The notes under the pieces were generated by a model. The model had not been told where the DNA came from. It saw only the letters and a program-made list of their open reading frames with translations, and ran no database searches. Shown piece by piece: positions 1,490 to 61,032 of a stretch of 64,000 bases of DNA (positions are counted from its first letter, which is position 1; every line of letters starts with the position of its first letter). A program made the position numbers and the translations under genes. Source of the DNA: Bacteroidota bacterium. Lineage in GTDB: Bacteria; Bacteroidota; Bacteroidia; M30B66. The DNA is taken from contig JAIXUS010000008.1 in assembly GCA_027483445.1 (NCBI GenBank), forward strand, positions 60,487 through 124,486, in the 5' to 3' direction.

Positions 1490-1553
1490 ACAATTTGTTT
1501 TTTCAAAAATACAGAAATAGGATGATTTTGCTTTTGGAGACGTGGTTCTTTTT

Positions 1554-1702
1554 GCGCCAGCGGTTGGAGCGGATACCCCGCAAAACAGAGCGGGAGCGGG
1601 AAAGCGCGAGAGCGGGCACTGTTTGAGGAGTATTAGCGAAAAACGCGGTGCCCTGCCAATACTGTTGAGGTGAAAACCGGAAGCTTACCAGGGCAGGCGC
1701 CC
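1554..1702. repeat. Conserved inverted-repeat-bounded element, copy A; candidate structured ncRNA or miniature repeat. The second copy is at 57812-57989.
   Basis: The conserved blocks 'gcgccagcgg.tg.agcggataccccg.aaaacagag' and 'ctgtttgaggagtat.agcgaaa.acgcggtgccc...gggcaggcgccc' are shared with copy B, while two internal segments differ. Compatible pairings are gcgcc/ggcgc, aaacag/ctgttt, atacccc/ggagtat and gtgccc/gggca. Confidence 0.8.
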
Positions 1703-1794
1703 AAAATCAATCGTTAAACGGCAAAATGTGTAATGTCTATTGAAATGGGCGATGCCATGCAGTATTGTTGGGCTTTACAAAGAAACCCACAATA

Positions 1795-1822
1795 AAAAAG
1801 CCGGAACACATGCCCCGGCTTC
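1795..1822 (-). terminator. Rho-independent terminator of ndk
   Basis: On the minus strand the sequence gccgg-ggcatgtgtt-ccggc is followed by UUUUUUAUU, about 25 nt past the ndk stop. Confidence 0.6.
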
Positions 1823-3135: not shown

Positions 3136-4150
3136 AAGCGTAAATGCGTTTTTTAAGGTCTTCTTCCCGGTCGAACCGGTATTGTATGGGTATTTCGAAC
3201 CAGAATGATTGTAGCTCCGGCGCAACCAGCGAATGAAGCTTCACATGGTCTTTTGCCGTACACAACACGCGGGCGTCGTGGGCAAACATACAACGTTTTG
3301 CCTCGATTTGAGCCACATCATCGGCCGTGTAAGCATGGTGGTCTTCAAAACGAAAATGCTGCTTCGGCCCCTTTCCCTCCTTAAAAAGCTCCTGCAAACC
3401 GCCATCACCGGCCAAACCGGTTACCAAAACAAAGGGCTCGGAAAGCGCCTGCTGCACCCCGATTTTTGCACTGCCATCAAACGAAATCAACGACTCATAC
3501 TCAATCGTCGAAAAGTAAATGTTGTGGGGTGGAAATGGGTGGATGGCCTTGTAGATGGCCTCTTTCTCCCATTGCTGAATGGTGTGCGGACATTTGCTGA
3601 TGACTACCACGTCGGCTTTCAGCCTCCGTTTCCACAAGTCGCGTTCATTTCCCGCCGGGAGCAACAAACGTGGCTTGAAAAAGTCGGCGAAAGGCATCAT
3701 CAATACTGAAAATCCAGCCTGAATCCGACGGTGTTGATACGCGTCATCGAGCAATATCACCTGCACGCCTGCACGCTCTTTGAGTATCCTACTGATGCCG
3801 TTTTTTCGATTTCCATCTACCGCCACCGGAGCCTCCGGAAATGCCTGTTTGAACAGCATGGGCTCATCGCCGGTTTCGGTGGTATTCATTTCCTGCTCTA
3901 CCCATCGAAAGCCCTTGCTTTTTCGTCCGTAGCCCCGACTCAGAAAGGCCGGTTTATGCTTGGTAATGAGCCAATTACCGAGTTGTAGAATCATTGGTGT
4001 TTTGCCACTTCCACCTACCCTTAAATTGCCCACAACAATGGTTCGTACCGGAGCCTTCCACGACGCCAACACACCTTGGTCGTACAGCCAATGCCTGATG
4101 AATAAAACCAAACCGAACAGCCATGAAAAGGGGAGAAGTAAACTTCGCAT
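3107..4150 (-). CDS. lpxK: Tetraacyldisaccharide 4'-kinase
   Basis: It has a 'VGNLRVGGSGKTP' P-loop and an N-terminal membrane anchor 'MRSLLLPFSWLFGLV'. The start is moved to an internal Met, with the ATG verified at 4150-4148. Confidence 0.85.
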   Translation of the reverse strand: MRSLLLPFSWLFGLVLFIRHWLYDQGVLASWKAPVRTIVVGNLRVGGSGKTPMILQLGNWLITKHKPAFLSRGYGRKSKGFRWVEQEMNTTETGDEPMLFKQAFPEAPVAVDGNRKNGISRILKERAGVQVILLDDAYQHRRIQAGFSVLMMPFADFFKPRLLLPAGNERDLWKRRLKADVVVISKCPHTIQQWEKEAIYKAIHPFPPHNIYFSTIEYESLISFDGSAKIGVQQALSEPFVLVTGLAGDGGLQELFKEGKGPKQHFRFEDHHAYTADDVAQIEAKRCMFAHDARVLCTAKDHVKLHSLVAPELQSFWFEIPIQYRFDREEDLKKRIYAYVEGDTTNR

Positions 4151-9055: not shown

Positions 9056-11260
9056 TTAACGACGAGGTGAACTCATTCTGTTTCCGCCCGAAGGAGCACT
9101 TGGACGAGGGCTGCTACCCGGACTGCTCATGCGAGGGCTACTCTCCATGCGTGGTGAGCTCATTCTTGGACTACTCTCCATGCGCGGCGAGCTTATTCTT
9201 GGACTACTTTCCATGCGTGGGCTGGATTGCATGCGCTGTTCGCGTTGAGGTGTTTGATAGTTTTGATTCATGTTGCGCTGTTCGCGCTGAGGGCTTTGGT
9301 ACTGCTGAAAGTTATTTTGACGTTCAGGCTGACGTTGGTATTCCTGATAGTTGTTTCTTGGAACCGACTGTGGTTGGCGATACTGCTGTTGTTGCTGCGG
9401 CATCTGCTGGAAATTGTTCCTTGGTTGGCTTTCAGGTTGACGCATCTGCGGCTGCACCGGATTGCGTTGATCCATTTGAGGTTGACGGAAATCCTGCTGA
9501 CGGGGTTGTTGCTGAACAGGTTGATCGGGGCGAACCGATGGATTCATGGGCTGTCGTACATCGTTTGGACGAGTAATGGGCTGTGGTGAATACTGTTCGG
9601 GCCTTGTTGTAGGTTGCTGAGGACGCACAGTGGAAGGCTGCTGAGGGCGGACCACTTCGGGCGTATTATTCCGTATGGCGTTGTTGTAGTTGTAGTTAGG
9701 ATTGTACAACTCTTTCTGTGGAGTGCCCGTTACCGGCTGCCCGGGGCGCGATTGAAGTCCACCATTTGCAGGACTCACACCATTGCCGGGGTTTCGCAAA
9801 TCGTTGGATGGGCGTGTACCGAATGGTGAGCTTGGAGCATTGTCGGAAACTACCTGTGGTTGGTTAGAATTTACCGGAGCGCTGGTATAGTTGTCGGCTT
9901 TAGGGCGAACTACACCTTGCTGAATGAGCTGGTCTTTTCCGCTTCCACCTGAAGTAGCCGGGCTATACTGGTTTACTTTACCGGGCTGCTGAGCCTGAAT
10001 AGGCTGTGTGCCGGTTCCGGTTTGTTTTCCGGGCTGTTGAGCCTGTACAGGCTGAACTCCATTGGAAGTTTGTTTTCCGGGTTGCACAGGAGTGTTTATC
10101 TCCTGTTTTCCGGGACTTGATGGGTTTTGTACTCCACTCACGCCCGGTTTAGCACTGTTGTTCTGAACGTTGCCTGGAAGTTTTCCGCTACCAGAGTTAG
10201 CATTGTTTTGATTTACCGGGGTTGAGCCACCTTTTACATCTTGAGCTGTACCAAGGTTGTTCACCGGTTTTACAACATTACCTCCAGTTGAGTTTACCAC
10301 AGGCATTCCATCTTTTCCACTATGCGCTACAGAAGGCGTCATGCCGAGCTGCTTAGAAAAATTAGAAGTTAAGTTTGGAGCGGTCGTGAAGCCTGAACCT
10401 CCGCCAATACCTCCGGTGTTAGGACCAAATGATACGGGGGCGTTGAAGTTAAAGGTGTTATAATCAAAACTGTTGTAATACACAGGGTTATTGAACATGT
10501 TGTTCATCATCATGCCGTAGGCAAAACCATTGTTAAACCCTTGCTGATAGCCTAAACCGTAGTTGAACGGTGAATGGAAGAAGGGGTTGTAAGCGAATGG
10601 CGACATAAATGGATCGTAGCCCCAGTTATTCCAACGCCAAGGGTTGTTGAAATTCCAAGGATTGTTCCAAGGGTTGTTCCAGGAGTTGAATCCAATATTG
10701 AAGTGCCAGCCTGTGAAAGAGTTCCACCCAAAGTTGACCCCTGGAGTCCAGCTATTCCAACCCCAAGGTACAAATGGATTGAAGAAGGAGTAAGTGGAGT
10801 AGATTGAATTACCAAACATGAATGGATCATAATTGTACCAGTACATGTTTGTGAAGAAAGGGTCGTAATATCCAAAACCCGGCATTGGACGGTGGAAACG
10901 ACGTATGCGGGAAGCGAACATGTAATCGTAATAATCGTCCATGTCGTAATCCACGTCGTAGTAATTGTTTACGATAGGAGCGTCGCCGTTATTGTCGGGC
11001 ATTGAGGTATAGTCGTTTGCGCGCGCTCCGGATTGGTTATCGGGAGCATCAAAGCCGTCCATGTTTTCTACTGATTCGCGTGGGGCGGATTCAGCAGGTT
11101 GACTTTGATTGAGTTTTTTAAGTTGTCGGGCTTCCCTTCGAGCGTCAGCCAACGAATAATATCGGTCGTCGGCCTCAAAGCGAGCGGTGTTCCGGTTGGT
11201 GCTGCAGGAAGTGCTGAGGATCATCAACACAACTCCTGAAAGAATCGGTAGGAGTTTCAT
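9056..11260 (-). CDS. Low-complexity lipoprotein with three compositional zones: N/W/F/Y/P-rich, then Q/P/G-rich, then tandem [12 protein letters not shown]-terminal repeats
   Basis: The start is moved to the internal '[20 protein letters not shown]' (ATG verified at 11260-11258), giving a signal peptide and a Cys lipobox-like site. The rest of the protein has extreme compositional bias. Confidence 0.6.
9097..9228. repeat. Tandem 33-bp coding repeats encoding [11 protein letters not shown]
   Basis: Two near-identical 33-bp units, ctctccatgcg(t/c)gg(t/c)gagct(c/t)attcttggacta, are flanked by degenerate copies. Confidence 0.8.
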
Positions 11261-31578: not shown

Positions 31579-31974
31579 GAATTTGGCAGGCATCAAAGCT
31601 GTTTGAATGCGGTTGCATACTGATTAAAAGTTATAGGAATCGAAGCAATACGACCATTGCATCATTATCAAATTCGCCATTTCGCAGTTTTTGTGCTGAA
31701 TTGGGGCTGATTGTCCTCGCTTTTTGTTGGTATTCAGGCTATTAATCCCAGGTTTAATACGAGTCTGAACAAATGCTTATTCAAACGATTTCATGAAGCC
31801 TGTGCCTGCCTGTTTTGCTTCTTTCTGCTAGGAAAATTCCAAAATACAGAATTCGCACAGCTGAATTGTATGCGCTGTATTTCAGGCTTTTCAGCACGCT
31901 TACAATTTAGTCGATGGGTGTTAACCTATCTGAATTCGAATCTTTAAGCATGATGACCGAATTTGCTAAATCAG

Positions 31975-32116
31975 TTCAGCGTATTGACTGAATTAGATTA
32001 AAAATCGTCAGTTAACTGACTGAATTTAATTAAAACCAGTCAGTGTAATGACGATATTTGATTAAAAAACGTCAGTTAACTGACTGAATTTTATTGAATA
32101 TCGTCAGTTGCTGGAG
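31975..32116. promoter_or_regulatory. Array of four phased GTCAG...TGAC palindromic sites (two tandem 64-bp units) immediately upstream of the DUF4143 ATPase gene
   Basis: The 14-bp perfect palindrome GTCAGTTAACTGAC occurs at 32007 and 32071. Variant sites lie at 32039 (GTCAGTGTAATGAC) and 32103 (half-site GTCAGTTG), giving an exact 32-bp spacing within conserved 'gattaaaaa.c' contexts. Confidence 0.7.
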
Positions 32117-32137
32117 ATTTATGTGTAATTTTGGGTT

Positions 32138-44071: not shown

Positions 44072-44144
44072 GCCGAAGTAGCTCAGCTGGTAGAGCAGCT
44101 GATTTGTAATCAGCTGGTCGGGGGTTCGAGTCCCTTCTTCGGCT
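44072..44144 (+). tRNA. tRNA-Thr (anticodon TGT)
   Basis: A manual cloverleaf was drawn with acceptor gccgaag/cttcggc, anticodon loop ttTGTaa and T-loop ttcgagt. No CCA is encoded. Confidence 0.85.
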
Positions 44145-44176
44145 CTGTTCTTTGTAGTACTTAGTACAAGGAGGTT

Positions 44177-44262
44177 GGGGAGATAGCCAAGTGGCCAACG
44201 GCAACAGACTGTAAATCTGTCCTCTTCGGAGTTCGCAGGTTCGAATCCTGCTCTCCCCACCA
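44177..44262 (+). tRNA. tRNA-Tyr (anticodon GTA), long variable arm, CCA encoded
   Basis: Acceptor ggggaga/tctcccc, anticodon loop ctGTAaa, a long variable arm and a 3' CCA were identified. Confidence 0.85.
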
Positions 44263-44310
44263 CGAAAAAAACGGTTGGAGCTGCACTTGCCGTTGCAGCG
44301 ACAACTAAAA

Positions 44311-44386
44311 GCGGAAGTAGCTCATTTGGTAGAGCATCAGCCTTCCAAGCTGAGGGTGGCCGGTTCGAGCCCGGTCTTCCGCTCCA
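44311..44386 (+). tRNA. tRNA-Gly (anticodon TCC), CCA encoded
   Basis: Acceptor gcggaag/cttccgc, anticodon loop ctTCCaa and T-loop ttcgagc were identified. Confidence 0.85.
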
Positions 44387-44408
44387 ATTTGGTTCTTTTG
44401 AACCAGAA

Positions 44409-44480
<72 letters not shown>

Positions 44481-45831: not shown

Positions 45832-45904
45832 ACGGGTGTAGCTCAATTGGTAGAGTGGCGGTCTCCAAAACCGTAGGTTGTAGGTTCGAGCCCTGCCATC
45901 CGTG
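45832..45904 (+). tRNA. tRNA-Trp (anticodon CCA)
   Basis: Acceptor acgggtg/catccgt has one G·U pair, with anticodon loop ctCCAaa. It has the canonical position between tuf and secE. Confidence 0.8.
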
Positions 45905-57535: not shown

Positions 57536-57578
57536 AAAGCGGCTGTATCGATAAACGGTACAGCCGCTTTTGTTTTGT
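57536..57578 (+). terminator. Rho-independent terminator of the rpoBC-DUF3467 operon
   Basis: The stem agcggctgta-[11 nt]-tacagccgct is followed by ttttgttttg. Confidence 0.75.
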
Positions 57579-57811
57579 GTGGGATAAGTGCTGGAATTGG
57601 AGGGTTCTCGAAGTCAAAATATTCCTCATGCGATTCCAGCTCCGATTGGATGGTAAGCTAATTTCATTGAATGATAGATTTAACCGCGTTTTTCGTTTCC
57701 TTCCTGCGGGACCTCTGCTCTTTTCCGGTGGATTAGGATTGTTTTACTGTTTTCCAGTACACAGTTACGAGCAGTAAACCCTCAGAAACGTTCGGCATTC
57801 AGCGAATTTTT

Positions 57812-57989
57812 GCGCCAGCGGGTGAAGCGGATACCCCGGAAAACAGAGTGAGTGTGGGAGTGAGAGAGAAGAGCGTGTGTAAGTGAGCGTGAGGCGGGGG
57901 AGAGCTCTGTTTGAGGAGTATGAGCGAAACACGCGGTGCCCGCCGATGAAGCTGAGGCTTAGAGTAAAACTAAAATAGGGCAGGCGCCC
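57812..57989. repeat. Conserved inverted-repeat-bounded element, copy B (candidate structured ncRNA or miniature repeat)
   Basis: It shares the conserved core with copy A at 1554-1702. It has a longer purine-rich insert 1 and a different insert 2. It is flanked by the same ttttt / cccaaaa context. Confidence 0.8.
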
Positions 57990-58032
57990 AAAAAAGAAAA
58001 AATACCCTGAATAAATGGGGCTTTATAATCGA

Positions 58033-60978
58033 CTATAATAGGTCGTAAATGGCTTCCTGAATTTCGACGCGGGTTGCCAATGTATTTATTTTTTTATTTT
58101 CTGCGTCGGGATAAACACGGTTACTGAGGAATACATATATAAGTTTTTTATCAGGATCGGCCCAGGCGATGGTGCCTGTAAAGCCCGTGTGGCCGAAACT
58201 TAAGGAAGAAACGCACTTGCAGGTTGGTCCTGTTTTTCCGTAATTCATTTCGGGTTTATCAAAGCCTAAACCACGCCGATTATCGTTTTCACAAAATTGA
58301 CAACGGGTAAATTCTTTAATTACATTTTCACTTAAATAACGGTCGCCACCGTAGGTGCCATAATTTAAAATCATCTGCATTAATGCGGCTAAATCTGTGG
58401 CATTAGAGAATAATCCTGCATGACCAGCAACTCCGCCCATCATTGCAGCACCTTGATCGTGCACATAGCCATGCACCAATTGTTTCCGGAATAATTTATC
58501 ATTTTCGGTTGGAACAATTTCTTCTTGATTGAAGCGACGAAGCGGATTGTAGGTAATTCTTGATAATCCCATTTTTCGATAAAATGTTTGAGCTGTATAT
58601 TCATCAAGTCCCATATTTTCGCGCTTTTCAATAATATGCTTGAAGAAATAATACCCTAAATCGGAATATTTATATTCAGGATTTTTACGATTACTAAGCT
58701 CACAAGCCGCAATACGCATCAAAATGGTGTCGGGGTAATCGAATCGCATAAACATTTTATCGGCCACCTGATGAGGAAAACTGTCAGAAGCCGCATTTCG
58801 ATAATATTTATTTCTGCGTTCTGCGGTATTGATTGTGCTATTGTAAAATGGAATCCATGCGGGTAATCCGGCCTGATGAGCAAGCACATCGCGCAACCTT
58901 AATTGCCCTTTGTTAGTGACTTTCAGCGCTGGAATATATTCTCCAATGGTTTTATCTACGTCAATAAATCCTTCATCAACCTGACGCATAATTGATATGG
59001 TTGAAGCAGCCACTTTAGTTATAGACGCAATGTCGTACAAGTCTGTAATTTCCACAGGTCGAACCGGTGCGTATGTATGGAATCCAAAAGCCTTGTTGTA
59101 AAAGACTTTTCCATCTTTTGCAATGAGCAATTGGCAGCCGGGCGTTGCTTTTGCATTGATGGCTACTTTGGCCAACGAATCAACCTTCGAGAGCGAACGA
59201 CTCGCAATGCCTAATTCTTCGGGCTGGGTGAATTTCAGCCGAATCACTTCGCTGAGCTCAAGCCCTTGTCCGGCCTTGTATTTACCTACAGAAACCGGCA
59301 TCATTCCATTGGCTTTTATACCGCCAAAAATAAGCTGGGCCGACAAATCCTGACTGTTTTTATTGTCTTCAAAAGCTTCAATTAATCCATGAGGTTTATG
59401 CGTCAGTTTTTCGAGCGAATAGGGATTGGCCAACACATTTACAATCACTTTCGATTGTTTTAGAACCCCACCAATAAAGGTATTCACGGCTGCATTTACG
59501 CCGGCCGATTTATTCATGGTGTTTTTGGGATTATGCACACTAATAATCACCAAATTATAAGGTTTAAGCTTTTGCAGCAATTCAGCCTGGCGTGCAGAAA
59601 GTTCATCTTTATCGACCGCAAAACCTTTCACCTGCGTGTAAAGGTTCAAGGTTTTTAGAAATACATTTCCTTCTTTTCCGTCGATCGCCACCGAAGCAAT
59701 ACGCAGCGTGTCGAGTCGCTTGAGCGGCATAAGATTTCGGTCGTTTTCCAGCACGCAAAGTGAGGCTTCTGTGAGCTTTCTCCTGAGCATTTCACTTTCG
59801 GCCGTGTTCAGATCTTCATGCAAATTCTTTATTTCTACTTTCCTCGATTTATGGGCTCCTAACCAATGTTTTGCATGCAGAATTTTCCGGCAACGGCGGT
59901 CTATTTCTTCCTGTGTAATTTCTCCGGACTGTATTGCTTTTTTAATTTCTGCCATTCCAGCCGTTACACTTTGAGTGAACAGCAATACATCGTTTCCGGC
60001 CAGCAAAGCGCGTACATCAGCCTTTCCGGGCCCATTAGAAGAGGCTACACCTTGCATATTCAGCGCATCGGTAAAAATGAGACCTTTGAAACCCATTTCC
60101 TTTTGTAAAAGCTCTGTAATGATGGCTTTTGAAAGAGTTGATGGCTTTGCAGCACTGCTGTCGAGGGCCGGAACAAAAAGGTGTGCAACCATCATTGAGC
60201 CCAAGCCACGTTCAATGAGATTACGGAAAGGCCATAGCTCAACAGAATCGAGTCGGGCGCGATTGTGGGCAATCACAGGTAAGGCTTTATGAGAGTCGGT
60301 ATCTGTGTCGCCGTGTCCAGGAAAATGTTTCGCATTGGCCAGCACATTGCCATCTTGCAAGCCCTGCATGTATGCCAGCGCCTTATTGAGTACGTTCTGC
60401 TTAAGTTCGCCAAATGAACGCATGTTAATAACAGGGTTGGCAGCATTGTTATTCACATCGGCTACCGGGGCAAAGTTCACGTGAATGCCCAATCGACGGC
60501 ATTGGCGCGCAATTTCTCGTCCCATTTCGTACACCAGCTTTTCGTCGCGGATTGCACCAAGGGTCATCTGTTTAGGAAACGACTGGGTTGAATCAAGTCG
60601 CATGGAAAGGCCCCATTCACCATCGATGGAAATCATTAGCGGTACCTTGGCCAATTTCTGGTATTTGTTGGTGAGGATGGCTTCACGAACAGGTCCGCCC
60701 TGCATAAAAATTAATCCACCGATTCCCTTTTTCTCAACCAGATTGCTGATTTCCTGCTCATGAGCTTTGTCTTTGTTGGAGTACGCAGCGACCATGAAAA
60801 GTTGGGCAATTCGCTCATCGGGACTTAGGTTTTTCATCACCGAATCAACCCATGCCTGTCCGCTGTTGAGATATGGAGGATCGGTTTGGTTTGCCGATTT
60901 TTGCGGCAAATTGAGGTTCGACATGAGCCAAAGTCCTGATCCAGCAAGCATTACGGTAAGAAAGAGGGTTTTCTTCAT
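58033..60978 (-). CDS. Glycoside hydrolase family 3 (NagZ-like beta-N-acetylglucosaminidase) fused to a serine beta-lactamase/PBP-like domain
   Basis: The N-terminal 'KHFPGHGDTDTDSH' and 'FTDALNM' are GH3 motifs. The C-terminal 'ASITKV' SxxK and 'HTGFTG' (KTG-like) motifs mark a beta-lactamase-class domain. The ATG is verified at 60978-60976. Confidence 0.8.
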   Translation of the reverse strand: MKKTLFLTVMLAGSGLWLMSNLNLPQKSANQTDPPYLNSGQAWVDSVMKNLSPDERIAQLFMVAAYSNKDKAHEQEISNLVEKKGIGGLIFMQGGPVREAILTNKYQKLAKVPLMISIDGEWGLSMRLDSTQSFPKQMTLGAIRDEKLVYEMGREIARQCRRLGIHVNFAPVADVNNNAANPVINMRSFGELKQNVLNKALAYMQGLQDGNVLANAKHFPGHGDTDTDSHKALPVIAHNRARLDSVELWPFRNLIERGLGSMMVAHLFVPALDSSAAKPSTLSKAIITELLQKEMGFKGLIFTDALNMQGVASSNGPGKADVRALLAGNDVLLFTQSVTAGMAEIKKAIQSGEITQEEIDRRCRKILHAKHWLGAHKSRKVEIKNLHEDLNTAESEMLRRKLTEASLCVLENDRNLMPLKRLDTLRIASVAIDGKEGNVFLKTLNLYTQVKGFAVDKDELSARQAELLQKLKPYNLVIISVHNPKNTMNKSAGVNAAVNTFIGGVLKQSKVIVNVLANPYSLEKLTHKPHGLIEAFEDNKNSQDLSAQLIFGGIKANGMMPVSVGKYKAGQGLELSEVIRLKFTQPEELGIASRSLSKVDSLAKVAINAKATPGCQLLIAKDGKVFYNKAFGFHTYAPVRPVEITDLYDIASITKVAASTISIMRQVDEGFIDVDKTIGEYIPALKVTNKGQLRLRDVLAHQAGLPAWIPFYNSTINTAERRNKYYRNAASDSFPHQVADKMFMRFDYPDTILMRIAACELSNRKNPEYKYSDLGYYFFKHIIEKRENMGLDEYTAQTFYRKMGLSRITYNPLRRFNQEEIVPTENDKLFRKQLVHGYVHDQGAAMMGGVAGHAGLFSNATDLAALMQMILNYGTYGGDRYLSENVIKEFTRCQFCENDNRRGLGFDKPEMNYGKTGPTCKCVSSLSFGHTGFTGTIAWADPDKKLIYVFLSNRVYPDAENKKINTLATRVEIQEAIYDLL

Positions 60979-61032
60979 AGCACGGTTCAAATTCTTTACA
61001 AAATAACGCTGCAAACAAGGAGGGCATTTCCG

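What the first reader, a model, noticed from the sequence alone, without database searches (positions are those of the whole stretch)
57812..57989. Copy B of the conserved element, in the rpoC-downstream convergent intergenic region
Copy B has the same conserved core as copy A but a 57-nt purine-rich insert 1 (gagtgtgggagtgagagagaagagcgtgtgtaagtgagcgtgaggcgggggagag) in place of 28 nt. Insert 2 differs in sequence yet retains short shared words (gaagct, tgagg). Both copies are bounded by the same ttttt...gcgcc / ggcgccc aaaa context, which forms a long terminal inverted repeat. Their location in unrelated gene neighbourhoods (ndk/protease versus rpoC/GH3-bla) argues for a dispersed element, not a cis-regulatory leader of one operon.
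Basis: seen in the sequence. Interest (0 to 1): 0.7.

Follow-up and report, generated by a model that had tools for sequence, protein, structure and literature searches.

The report
Dispersed three-way-junction repeat of freshwater Bacteroidota
Copy B is a real member of an unannotated family of roughly 115-215-base intergenic repeats in Bacteroidota that fold into a conserved three-armed structure with two variable arms; this probably matters at the RNA level, but its function and transcribed strand are still unknown.

Summary
Window 57812-57989 (copy B) and 1554-1702 (copy A) share a conserved core. They score 103 and 101 bits (E about 1e-25) against a covariance model built from copies in other genomes.

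The family is dispersed. At least 12 copies lie on separate contigs of a closely related MAG (RE-18aug17-170). More divergent copies occur in Flavobacteriales, Saprospiraceae and a Spirochaeta-labelled MAG.

The core is a three-way junction. A 5-bp closing helix (GCGCC/GGCGC) joins a long irregular helix with purine-rich internal loops and a second hairpin. In 23 copies, 15 of 25 modelled pairs show compensatory changes (0/500 shuffles reach this).

Insert 1 is often a purine hexamer microsatellite: 2 units in copy A, 12.5 in a relative with about 90% nucleotide identity.

Copy B lies 44 nt after the stop codon of the GH3/beta-lactamase gene. It is kept there in relatives with at least 90% identical GH3 and is absent from relatives at 75% and 66%.

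The element has no Rfam match, no conserved ORF, no target-site duplication, no conserved long inverted repeat and no canonical Bacteroidetes -7 box.

The best reading is an ERIC/REP-like structured element at gene 3' ends. Function and strand are inferred, not shown.

The parts
57807..57811 (+). T-run directly 5' of the element (generic T-rich flank)
   Evidence: The flank is T-rich in most copies, but complementarity to the 3' flank is not copy-specific.
57812..57816 (+). P1 5' strand, GCGCC
   Evidence: Pairs with 57983-57987. The pairing is nearly invariant, with compensatory variants: GCGCA/UGCGC in the orthologue L108, and GCGCG/CGCGC and GCGUG/CACGC in short variants.
57818..57839 (+). 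P2 5' strand: GCG.G.GU.GAA.GC.GG.AUACCCC.GG
   Evidence: Alignments A2 and A6. Pairs 16/188 (GC 13, UA 7, CG 2, UG 1) and 17/187 (UA 18, CG 5) covary.
57840..57912 (+).
   Evidence: The same stem with different purine loops occurs in L034, L056, L061, L070, L084 and L108. TRF finds 12.5 hexamer units in L001 and none in copy B.
57913..57934 (+). P2 3' strand: GA.GGAGUAU.GA.GC.GAA.AC.A.CGC
   Evidence: It contains the nearly invariant C.A opposition (57835 with 57917), found in 21 of 23 copies.
57937..57982 (+).
   Evidence: The helix continues with covarying pairs: C-G, U-A or G-C at the fifth position; UGCCGCCU/AGGCGGCA in L083.
57983..57995 (+). P1 3' strand GGCGC (57983-57987), conserved CC (57988-57989), then an A-run
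   Evidence: 'CC' follows P1 in all 23 copies and is usually followed by A.
1549..1708 (+). Copy A of the same family, between the ndk terminator (1797-1822, minus strand) and the aspartyl-protease gene start (1489)
   Evidence: It is kept at the same locus in L001, whose flanks are 87-91% identical.
58033..61014 (-). GH3 / beta-lactamase fusion gene; its stop codon lies 44 nt from the 3' end of copy B (convergent with the + sense of the element)
   Evidence: The gene-element linkage is conserved in L108 and L109-L111.
57536..57570 (+). Intrinsic terminator of the rpoC-DUF3467 unit, 240 nt upstream of copy B
   Evidence: Homology with the ~90%-identical relatives L003/L004 ends just after it, at about 57576.

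Best explanation
What it is (about 0.9 confidence). Copy B belongs to an unannotated family of dispersed intergenic elements, about 115-215 nt long, found in Bacteroidota. The conserved blocks pair into a three-way junction:
- P1, a closing helix GCGCC/GGCGC.
- P2, a long irregular helix interrupted by conserved purine-rich internal loops and capped by variable arm 1.
- P5, a helix UGCC/GGCA capped by variable arm 2.
Arm 1 is often a slippage-prone purine hexamer tract.

How it works (inferred, about 0.4 confidence). The element lives in the spacers next to gene 3' ends. It has no recognisable promoter of its own and is transcribed by read-through from a neighbouring gene. For copy B, the complementary strand would form the 3' UTR of the GH3/beta-lactamase mRNA. 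The GC-clamped junction would then act as a stable RNA end structure: a barrier to 3'-to-5' exonucleases and an insulator between converging transcripts, as REP/BIME and ERIC elements do in enterobacteria.

The family has multiplied in the past but is now old and mostly vertically inherited. Its copies serve as breakpoints for genome rearrangement.

Shown: family membership, fold, covariation, genomic context and orthologous retention. Inferred: transcription, strand and effect on RNA.
For: Family and dispersal:
- Pattern scans and a covariance model give 23 credible copies plus the orthologue L108.
- At least 12 copies sit on separate contigs of one MAG. That MAG is a close relative of the window organism (GH3 protein 93% identical).

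Structure:
- 89.9% of cells form standard pairs.
- 15 of 25 pairs show compensatory change; 0/500 shuffles reach this, and slid controls give at most 4 pairs.
- An orthologous compensatory change in P1 converts GCGCC/GGCGC to GCGCA/UGCGC.

Context:
- No conserved ORF spans the element.
- Neighbouring genes are functionally unrelated.
- About half of roughly 16 independent loci lie between convergent genes, and 0-1 lie between divergent genes. The element therefore sits at terminator-side spacers.
- The nearest stop codon is 9-143 nt away.
- No TAnnTTTG -7 box lies within 150 nt upstream in either sense, for any of 22 copies.

Linkage to a gene 3' end:
- Copy B is kept 41-44 nt after the GH3 stop codon in relatives with at least 90% identical GH3.
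- In the two ortholog pairs with one rearranged flank, the conserved flank is the gene whose 3' end abuts the element.

Age:
- Copies within the related MAG are at most 89% identical to each other.
Against: - No expression data exist. Neither the transcribed strand nor transcription itself is shown.
- Structural logic favours the + strand, which for copy B is antisense to GH3. The internal loops are purine-rich (G.A type). One copy (L014) replaces the C-G/C.A step with tandem G.A/A.G. Sporadic G.U pairs occur (3) but sporadic A.C pairs do not (0). The + strand folds better in 14 of 20 copies.
- Only the near-invariant C.A (a G.U on the - strand) and the genomic context favour the - strand.
- Among co-directional loci the element occurs in both orientations, roughly 3-4 each.
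- The structure is followed by an A-run, not a U-run, in both senses, so it is not an intrinsic terminator.
- Core sequence invariance across orders is stronger than a mere exonuclease block would require. It hints at a specific binding partner.
- Gene calls in the flanks come from a naive ORF finder.
Confidence: 0.4

Rival explanations
1. The element is an independently expressed, trans-acting small RNA family, with the + sense as drawn being the RNA. The conserved junction and purine internal loops would bind a protein. The expandable purine tract in arm 1, rich in GGA/GGAG, would act as a multivalent platform or sponge, analogous to CsrB/RsmZ-type RNAs.
For: - Near-invariant junction sequence across Bacteroidota orders, together with covarying helices.
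- Purine-rich G.A internal loops, a better + strand fold in 14/20 copies, and sporadic G.U but no sporadic A.C pairs.
- Purine repeats recur at the arm tip even in divergent short variants, e.g. GGAGCGGAGCGGAG in L017:620-713 and L044:4144-4249.
- Repeat number differs strongly between close relatives.
Against: - No conserved promoter motif or terminator is present. Flank conservation stops at the element ends.
- In two ortholog pairs the 5' flank, where a promoter would lie, is completely replaced.
- About a third of copies (arm type II: L041, L044, L045, L071, L038) have no purine tract.
- CsrA is, to my knowledge, not typical of Bacteroidota. This was not tested here.
Confidence: 0.25
2. 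The element is a selfish, non-autonomous mobile DNA element (MITE- or REPIN-like). Its hairpin/junction structure would be needed in single-stranded DNA for mobilisation by a transposase supplied in trans, with no host function.
For: - It is multi-copy and dispersed, and lies in spacers that tolerate insertions.
- L030 and L049 share a 94%-identical ~260-bp unit in different gene contexts in two species-level MAGs.
- Synteny breakpoints coincide, within 3 nt, with the element's 5' end in two ortholog pairs.
- Most pairs are Watson-Crick, so the fold would also form in DNA.
Against: - There is no target-site duplication.
- Only 5 bp of terminal complementarity is conserved.
- No near-identical paralogues exist; the maximum is 89%.
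- Orthologous retention spans about 20-30% flank divergence.
- No transposase gene lies beside any copy.
- No match in the plasmid or phage collections, and only a chance hit in viral contigs.
- Arm sequences diverge while the core is held, which points to selection on the core rather than recent copying.
Confidence: 0.2
3. The element is a DNA recombination site that marks the end of a gene-plus-element unit, in the manner of an integron attC site, or it is simply a substrate for homologous recombination between copies.
For: - The gene-element unit is conserved, while the distal flank is replaced exactly at the element boundary in two pairs.
- L108 carries a 5' flank module shared with the paralogue L070, which suggests exchange between copies.
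Against: - No attC core sites (RYYYAAC/GTTRRRY), no cassette arrays and no integrase nearby.
- Neighbouring genes are core housekeeping genes.
- Breakpoints at dispersed repeats are expected from ordinary homologous recombination and need no dedicated function.
Confidence: 0.06
4. The element is a cis-regulatory 5' leader or riboswitch controlling the downstream gene.
For: The core is a conserved junction with invariant nucleotides, and three invariant segments allow alternative pairings: GCGCC with either GGUGC or GGCGC, and GGUGCC with GGCGCC.
Against: - In either sense most copies face a gene's 3' end rather than its start.
- Neighbouring genes are functionally unrelated.
- Copy A lies upstream of the probable -7 box of the protease gene (CAAAAATA at 1504-1511, read).
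- No Rfam riboswitch match.
Confidence: 0.03

Closest known systems
ERIC / IRU elements of enterobacteria (description from my own knowledge, not tested here)
   Same: Both are ~130-nt structured intergenic repeats found in transcribed spacers near gene ends. Both are conserved across genera, occur in either orientation, and have size variants made by insertions at fixed internal sites. Copy numbers range from a handful to hundreds.
   Different: There is no sequence relationship. ERIC is one long imperfect palindrome, whereas this element is a three-way junction with a near-invariant core and covarying helices. This family occurs in Bacteroidota. One arm carries a hexamer microsatellite.
REP / BIME / REPIN elements (with their RAYT transposases)
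   Same: Both are dispersed extragenic structured repeats enriched at gene 3' ends. REPs are thought to stabilise upstream mRNA and are substrates for rearrangement.
   Different: REPs are 20-40-nt palindromes with a GTAG or CGTC head (abstract of PMC3733652) and usually have hundreds of similar copies. This element has no such head, is 4-6 times longer and is branched. No RAYT gene could be looked for.
MITE carrying a minisatellite in Porphyromonas gingivalis (Mob DNA 2015, PMC4596501; abstract only)
   Same: Both are Bacteroidota intergenic repeat elements that carry an internal variable tandem repeat.
   Different: That element is described as a MITE with inverted repeats. This one lacks conserved long inverted repeats and a target-site duplication. 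Its repeat unit is 6 nt and sits in the loop of a covarying helix. Sequences were not compared.
CsrB/RsmZ-type protein-sponge sRNAs
   Same: Both have a variable number of short purine motifs containing GGA, displayed in loops of a structured RNA.
   Different: Sponge sRNAs are single-copy genes with their own promoter and terminator. This element is multi-copy with neither. A third of the copies lack the purine tract, and no partner protein is known.

Membership tests
Any Rfam 15 family | Match to a curated covariance model at the gathering score, or at least a suggestive E-value | tested here: not met
   At gathering thresholds the window yields only 5 tRNAs. No hit with E<=10 overlaps copy B, or the short copies in L014, L017, L045 and L095.
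MITE | Terminal inverted repeats of about 15 bp or more, conserved between copies | tested here: not met
   Only GCGCC/GGCGC (5 bp) is conserved. Duplex energy of a copy's own flanks (mean -3.7 kcal/mol) is no better than that of flanks from different copies (-4.0; Mann-Whitney p=0.71).
MITE | Target-site duplication flanking each copy | tested here: not met
   The flank list for 23 copies shows no direct repeats. The 5' flanks are T-rich and the 3' flanks read CC+A-rich.
MITE | Recent amplification: many near-identical copies, and presence/absence polymorphism | tested here: inconclusive
   Paralogues in the RE-18aug17-170 MAG are at most 89% identical. Copy B is present in relatives with >=90% identical GH3 and absent at 75% and 66%, but the neighbouring genes differ there, so no clean empty site exists. 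L030 and L049 share a 94%-identical unit in different contexts.
REP / REPIN | 20-40-nt palindrome with a conserved GTAG/CGTC head, and an associated RAYT gene | tested here: not met
   The element is about 115-215 nt, branched and has no such head. RAYT presence cannot be tested without whole genomes.
Structured RNA (generic criterion) | Helices supported by compensatory base changes beyond phylogenetic and chance expectation | tested here: met
   15/25 pairs have changes on both sides, in 40 cells; 0/500 shuffles reach this. Slid controls give 1-4 pairs. An orthologous compensatory change occurs in P1. Caveat: the alignment was fitted to the model.
Riboswitch / 5' leader | Constant position and orientation upstream of functionally related genes | tested here: not met
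   Most copies face gene 3' ends, and the neighbouring genes are unrelated in function.
Integron attC site | R''/R' core sites, tandem cassette arrays, an intI integrase | tested here: not met
   The element ends read GCGCC... and ...GGCGCCCAAA. There is one copy per locus except two loci that also carry a divergent short variant. No integrase is among the flanking ORFs.
Independent sRNA gene of Bacteroidota | Its own promoter (-7 TAnnTTTG) at a fixed distance, and a terminator | tested here: not met
   No exact TAnnTTTG lies within 150 nt upstream in either sense for 22 copies. Flanks are not conserved. Only an exact motif was scanned, so degenerate promoters are not excluded.

The most novel reading that the evidence does not exclude
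The element is a new class of functional non-coding RNA specific to Bacteroidota. Its near-invariant three-way junction would be bound by a dedicated protein. Its arm-1 purine hexamer tract (GGA/GGAG-rich, expanding and contracting between close relatives) would tune a sponge-like or scaffold activity. Alternatively, it could be the RNA or single-stranded-DNA form of a so far unknown mobilisation system that needs no inverted repeats or target duplications.
Probability: 0.2. Interest if true: 0.8.

Novelty: new variant of a known kind. Interest (0 to 1): 0.6.

Why it matters
Bacteroidota are poorly served by current RNA-family catalogues. A multi-copy, covariation-supported three-way-junction element conserved across several orders would add a new entry.

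Practical consequences:
- The window holds 2 copies in 64 kb, which hints at on the order of 100 copies per genome. This is an extrapolation, not a measurement.
- Several assemblies break inside the element. Recognising it would help the assembly and annotation of freshwater Bacteroidota MAGs.
- It marks rearrangement breakpoints.
- Its hexamer tract could serve as a strain marker.

If the RNA has a dedicated partner, it would open a new post-transcriptional system in a phylum that mostly lacks the classical Hfq/CsrA paradigms. That last statement is from my own knowledge and was not tested.

Tried and rejected
- Rfam at gathering and permissive thresholds, on the window and on short copies: nothing.
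- Plasmid and phage BLAST with a short copy: no match.
- Viral-contig pattern scan: one hit, inside GC-rich sequence with a marginal model score.
- The first metagenome pattern gave 16 hits. Only 3 were real; the others were GC-rich coding sequence.
- Single-sequence folding of copy B is not significant on either strand (z = -0.9 and -1.6). Only the comparative evidence carries weight.
- Extension of P1 into the flanks: rejected.
- A conserved downstream module: it was only the orthologous flank shared by L020 and L034.
- Coding potential: rejected.
- Canonical -7 box search: empty.
- Strand decision by alignment folding: not decisive (structure conservation index 0.37 for + against 0.33 for -).
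- An apparent orientation bias (downstream gene convergent in 15/19) disappeared. Convergent loci count equally for both senses, and co-directional loci split about evenly.
- Resemblances considered from memory and not pursued, because Rfam models for these families gave no hit: hammerhead, HDV-like, twister, 5S rRNA, tRNA-like CCA end, k-turn.
- Three literature searches found no named family. This was not an exhaustive search.

Full report
**Observation.** Copy B (window 57812-57989, + strand) and copy A (1554-1702, + strand) are real. The repeat finder pairs 1549-1611 with 57807-57869 (83% identity) and 1606-1653 with 57894-57941 (85%). The pairwise alignment shows four conserved blocks: TTTTTGCGCCAGCGG, AGCGGATACCCCG.AAAACAGAG, CTGTTTGAGGAGTAT.AGCGAAA.ACGCGGTGCCC and AGGGCAGGCGCCCAAAA. 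A covariance model built only from copies in other genomes scores B at 103 bits and A at 101 bits (E about 1e-25). With all filters off, nothing else in the 64 kb exceeds 9 bits. The purine-rich loop of B is 56 nt (57849-57904), 79% purine, with 3 C (read).

**Source.** Exact-protein look-ups place the window in uncultured freshwater Bacteroidota: lake metagenomes, with neighbouring genes carrying CHU_C and Por_Secre_tail domains. The GH3/beta-lactamase protein next to copy B is 93% identical to one on contig CANHCM010000054 of the MAG 'Bacteroidetes bacterium RE-18aug17-170' (GCA_947459155.1). That MAG is therefore a close relative.

**The family.**
- A metagenome scan with a 5' block pattern found three further copies, L014, L017 and L020.
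It still returned 11 copies on 11 contigs of the RE-18aug17-170 MAG, two from Flavobacteriales MAGs (L030, L049), one from a Saprospiraceae MAG (L083) and a compact copy in a Spirochaeta-labelled MAG (L095). The remaining hits were GC-rich chance matches.
- The covariance model confirms 23 copies at E<1e-5. Two of these are short, divergent variants (94 and 106 nt, 38 bits) on contigs that also hold a full copy.
- There is no match to Rfam 15 at any threshold, for long or short copies.
- There is no match in the plasmid, phage or viral collections beyond chance.

**Anatomy** (written for the + strand).
- P1 is GCGCC (57812-57816) paired with GGCGC (57983-57987).
- P2 is a long irregular helix formed by 57818-57839 and 57913-57934. 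Its paired segments are GCG/CGC, GU/AC, GC/GC and AUACCCC/GGAGUAU. Conserved purine internal loops separate them: G opposite A, GNA opposite GAA, and GG opposite NA. A C.A opposition is present in 21 of 23 copies.
- P5 is UGCC (57937-57940) paired with GGCA (57979-57982).
- Together these make a three-way junction with J1/2 = A, J2/5 = GG and no linker between P5 and P1.

**Support for the structure.**
- On the 23-copy model-fitted alignment, 89.9% of cells form standard pairs.
- 15 of 25 pairs show changes on both sides, in 40 cells. No shuffle out of 500 reaches any measure. Sliding the partner by 1-3 columns gives 1-4 such pairs and 25-51% pairing.
- The clearest pairs are 16/188 (GC 13, UA 7, CG 2, UG 1) and 17/187 (UA 18, CG 5).
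- P5 continues into arm 2 with C-G, U-A and G-C alternatives.
- P1 covaries in the short variants (GCGCG/CGCGC, GCGUG/CACGC). It also covaries between orthologues: window GCGCC/GGCGC against L108 GCGCA/UGCGC.
- Three invariant segments could also pair in other ways: GCGCC with GGUGC, and GGUGCC with GGCGCC. The L108 compensatory change supports P1 as drawn. A conformational switch is not excluded.
- Single-sequence folding of copy B is not significant. The evidence is comparative.

**The two 'inserts'.** Insert 1 is the tip of P2 (arm 1). It comes in at least two types.
- Type I has the stem AAAACAGAG/CUCUGUUU(U) around a purine loop of degenerate GYGRRA hexamers. It occurs in A, B, L001, L020, L034, L056, L061, L070, L084 and L108.
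- Type II is a GC-rich hairpin, GUAGGGGCGGC-loop-GCCGCCCUAC, with compensatory changes between copies. It occurs in L041, L044, L045, L071 and L038.

The hexamer tract behaves as a microsatellite. Copy A has GCGGGA twice. The same locus in L001, whose flanks are 87-91% identical, has 12.5 units by TRF. The orthologue of B in L108 has a shorter loop that begins with the same 22 nt. Purine repeats such as GGAGCGGAGCGGAG also sit at the tip of the short variants. Insert 2 is the tip of P5 (arm 2, 36-39 nt in most copies). No consensus fold was found for it beyond the base of the helix.

**Context.**
- No ORF is conserved across the element. Element lengths fall in all three residues mod 3. The + strand has stops in all frames in most copies. 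Three copies have stops in all six frames.
- Neighbouring genes are unrelated: ndk, an aspartyl protease, DUF3467 after rpoC, GH3/beta-lactamase, adenylate kinase, shikimate dehydrogenase, a nucleotidyl transferase, enoyl-CoA hydratase, a WD40 protein, GSCFA and a pseudouridine synthase.
- By ORF inspection, about half of roughly 16 independent loci are convergent intergenic regions. The others are co-directional, in both orientations in roughly equal numbers. At most one is divergent. These counts rest on a naive ORF finder.
- A stop codon lies 9-143 nt from one end of the element.
- Flank conservation stops at the element.
- Flank complementarity is generic, T-rich against A-rich, and not copy-specific.
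- No exact Bacteroidetes -7 box (TAnnTTTG) lies within 150 nt upstream in either sense.
- The structure is followed by an A-run in both senses, so it is not an intrinsic terminator. rpoC-DUF3467 and ndk have their own terminators.

**Evolution.**
- Copy A is retained in L001.
- Copy B is retained 41 nt after the GH3 stop codon in the RE-18aug17-170 MAG (L108). It is also present, cut by the contig end, in three further contigs with GH3 at least 90% identical (L109-L111).
- Relatives with GH3 at 75% (L112) and 66% (L113, from a 4.2-Mb contig) lack it, but their neighbouring genes differ. No clean empty site exists.
- Relatives about 90% identical at rpoC-DUF3467 (L003-L005, L007) diverge from the window just after the terminator, at about 57576.
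- Homology between the window and L108 ends within 1 nt of the element's 5' end. Homology between L020 and L034, whose flanks are about 71% identical, starts 3 nt before it. Rearrangement breakpoints therefore coincide with the element.
- L108 shares a 5' flank module with the paralogue L070, which suggests exchange between copies.
- L030 and L049 share a 94%-identical ~260-bp unit, including an extra 5' UUCG hairpin, in different gene contexts. Copies have therefore moved or been exchanged at some time.
- Within the RE-18aug17-170 MAG, no two copies exceed 89% identity.
- Several Logan contigs end inside the element, as expected when an assembly meets a repeat.

**Which strand.** This is unresolved.
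- For the + strand: the internal loops are purine-rich (G.A type) and would stack to hold the 2-bp helices that demonstrably covary. L014 replaces the C-G/C.A step with tandem G.A/A.G. There are three sporadic G.U pairs and no sporadic A.C pair. The + strand has the lower folding z-score in 14 of 20 copies (means -1.6 against -1.0). Alignment folding slightly favours + (structure conservation index 0.37 against 0.33).
- For the - strand: the near-invariant C.A would be a G.U wobble. In both rearranged ortholog pairs the retained flank is the gene for which the - sense would be a 3' UTR.

**Mechanism.**
- Shown: a dispersed family, a covarying three-way junction, variable arms with a microsatellite, location at gene 3' ends, long orthologous retention and breakpoint association.
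- Inferred (about 0.4): the element is transcribed by read-through and acts as a stable RNA end structure or insulator, like ERIC or REP elements.
- Rivals: a trans-acting sRNA or protein sponge read from the + strand (0.25); a selfish mobile element that needs the fold in single-stranded DNA (0.2); a recombination site (0.06); a 5' leader (0.03).
- The strength of core conservation across orders is the main reason not to dismiss a dedicated partner.

**Known relatives and novelty.** The element fails the defining tests for MITEs (conserved inverted repeats, target duplication), for REP/REPIN (size, head motif), for attC sites, for a riboswitch and for every Rfam family. In genomic behaviour it most resembles ERIC elements. 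Conceptually it resembles the minisatellite-bearing MITE of Porphyromonas gingivalis (PMC4596501, abstract only). I rate it a new variant of a known kind, namely structured dispersed intergenic repeats, with interest 0.6. The literature check was limited to three full-text searches.

Noticed in passing
window 31967-32126: Four to five head-to-tail 32-nt units, each with a palindromic core (e.g. GTCAGTTAACTGAC). This looks like an iteron- or operator-like array (repeat finder family D1).
   Followed up: no
window 9125-9223 and 9232-9315: Three tandem 33-nt units followed by two 42-nt units (families D5 and D12). Whether they are coding or not was not examined.
   Followed up: no
L017:620-713 (+) and L044:4144-4249 (+): Short (94 and 106 nt) divergent hits to the covariance model (38 bits). 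Their P1 covaries (GCGCG/CGCGC, GCGUG/CACGC), they have a (GGAGC)n-type purine loop, and they lack a clear second arm. L044's copy also contains two direct repeats of AATGGAAAGCCCG. They may be a hairpin-only sister family, lying on the same contigs as full copies.
   Followed up: partly
L002:1, L109:5436, L110:3328, L111:5599 (contig ends): Four independent Logan contigs end inside the element, mostly near arm 1. This is consistent with assemblies breaking at a dispersed repeat or microsatellite.
   Followed up: partly
window 57811/57812; L108:5688; L020 and L034 (3 nt 5' of GCGCC): Synteny with orthologous loci ends within 1-3 nt of the element's 5' end in two independent pairs. Rearrangement breakpoints therefore coincide with the element boundary.
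   Followed up: partly
L108:5693-5750 (-), L070:435-493 (+), L056 upstream of 5766: A further ~55-nt module (CTCAAATGTTAAAACAA...ACGACT) precedes the element in L108 and L070, with a weaker version in L056. A word CAGAA(A)CGTTCGG is shared by the 5' flanks of window copy B (57784-57797) and L061. The spacers may hold other small repeats.
   Followed up: partly
L030 and L049, about 40 nt 5' of the element: The Flavobacteriales copies carry an extra 5' hairpin with a UUCG loop (AAGGCCGGC-UUCG-CCGGCCUU). It is part of the 94%-identical shared unit.
   Followed up: no
window 1504-1511 (minus strand): TATTTTTG, an exact Bacteroidetes-type -7 box (TAnnTTTG), lies 14 nt upstream of the aspartyl-protease start codon. 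It places copy A upstream of that promoter rather than in the 5' UTR.
   Followed up: no
window 44072-44480 and 45832-45904: A cluster of five tRNA genes (Rfam RF00005, 62-74 bits), upstream of the rpoB/rpoC region.
   Followed up: no
L003:3530-3700 and 3880-4060: In the ~90%-identical relative, the spacer after rpoC-DUF3467 contains a direct repeat of about 180 nt (GGGCTGCTCCCGGGGTCCACCATCCTCC...CCCGTTTTG), seen by eye.
   Followed up: no
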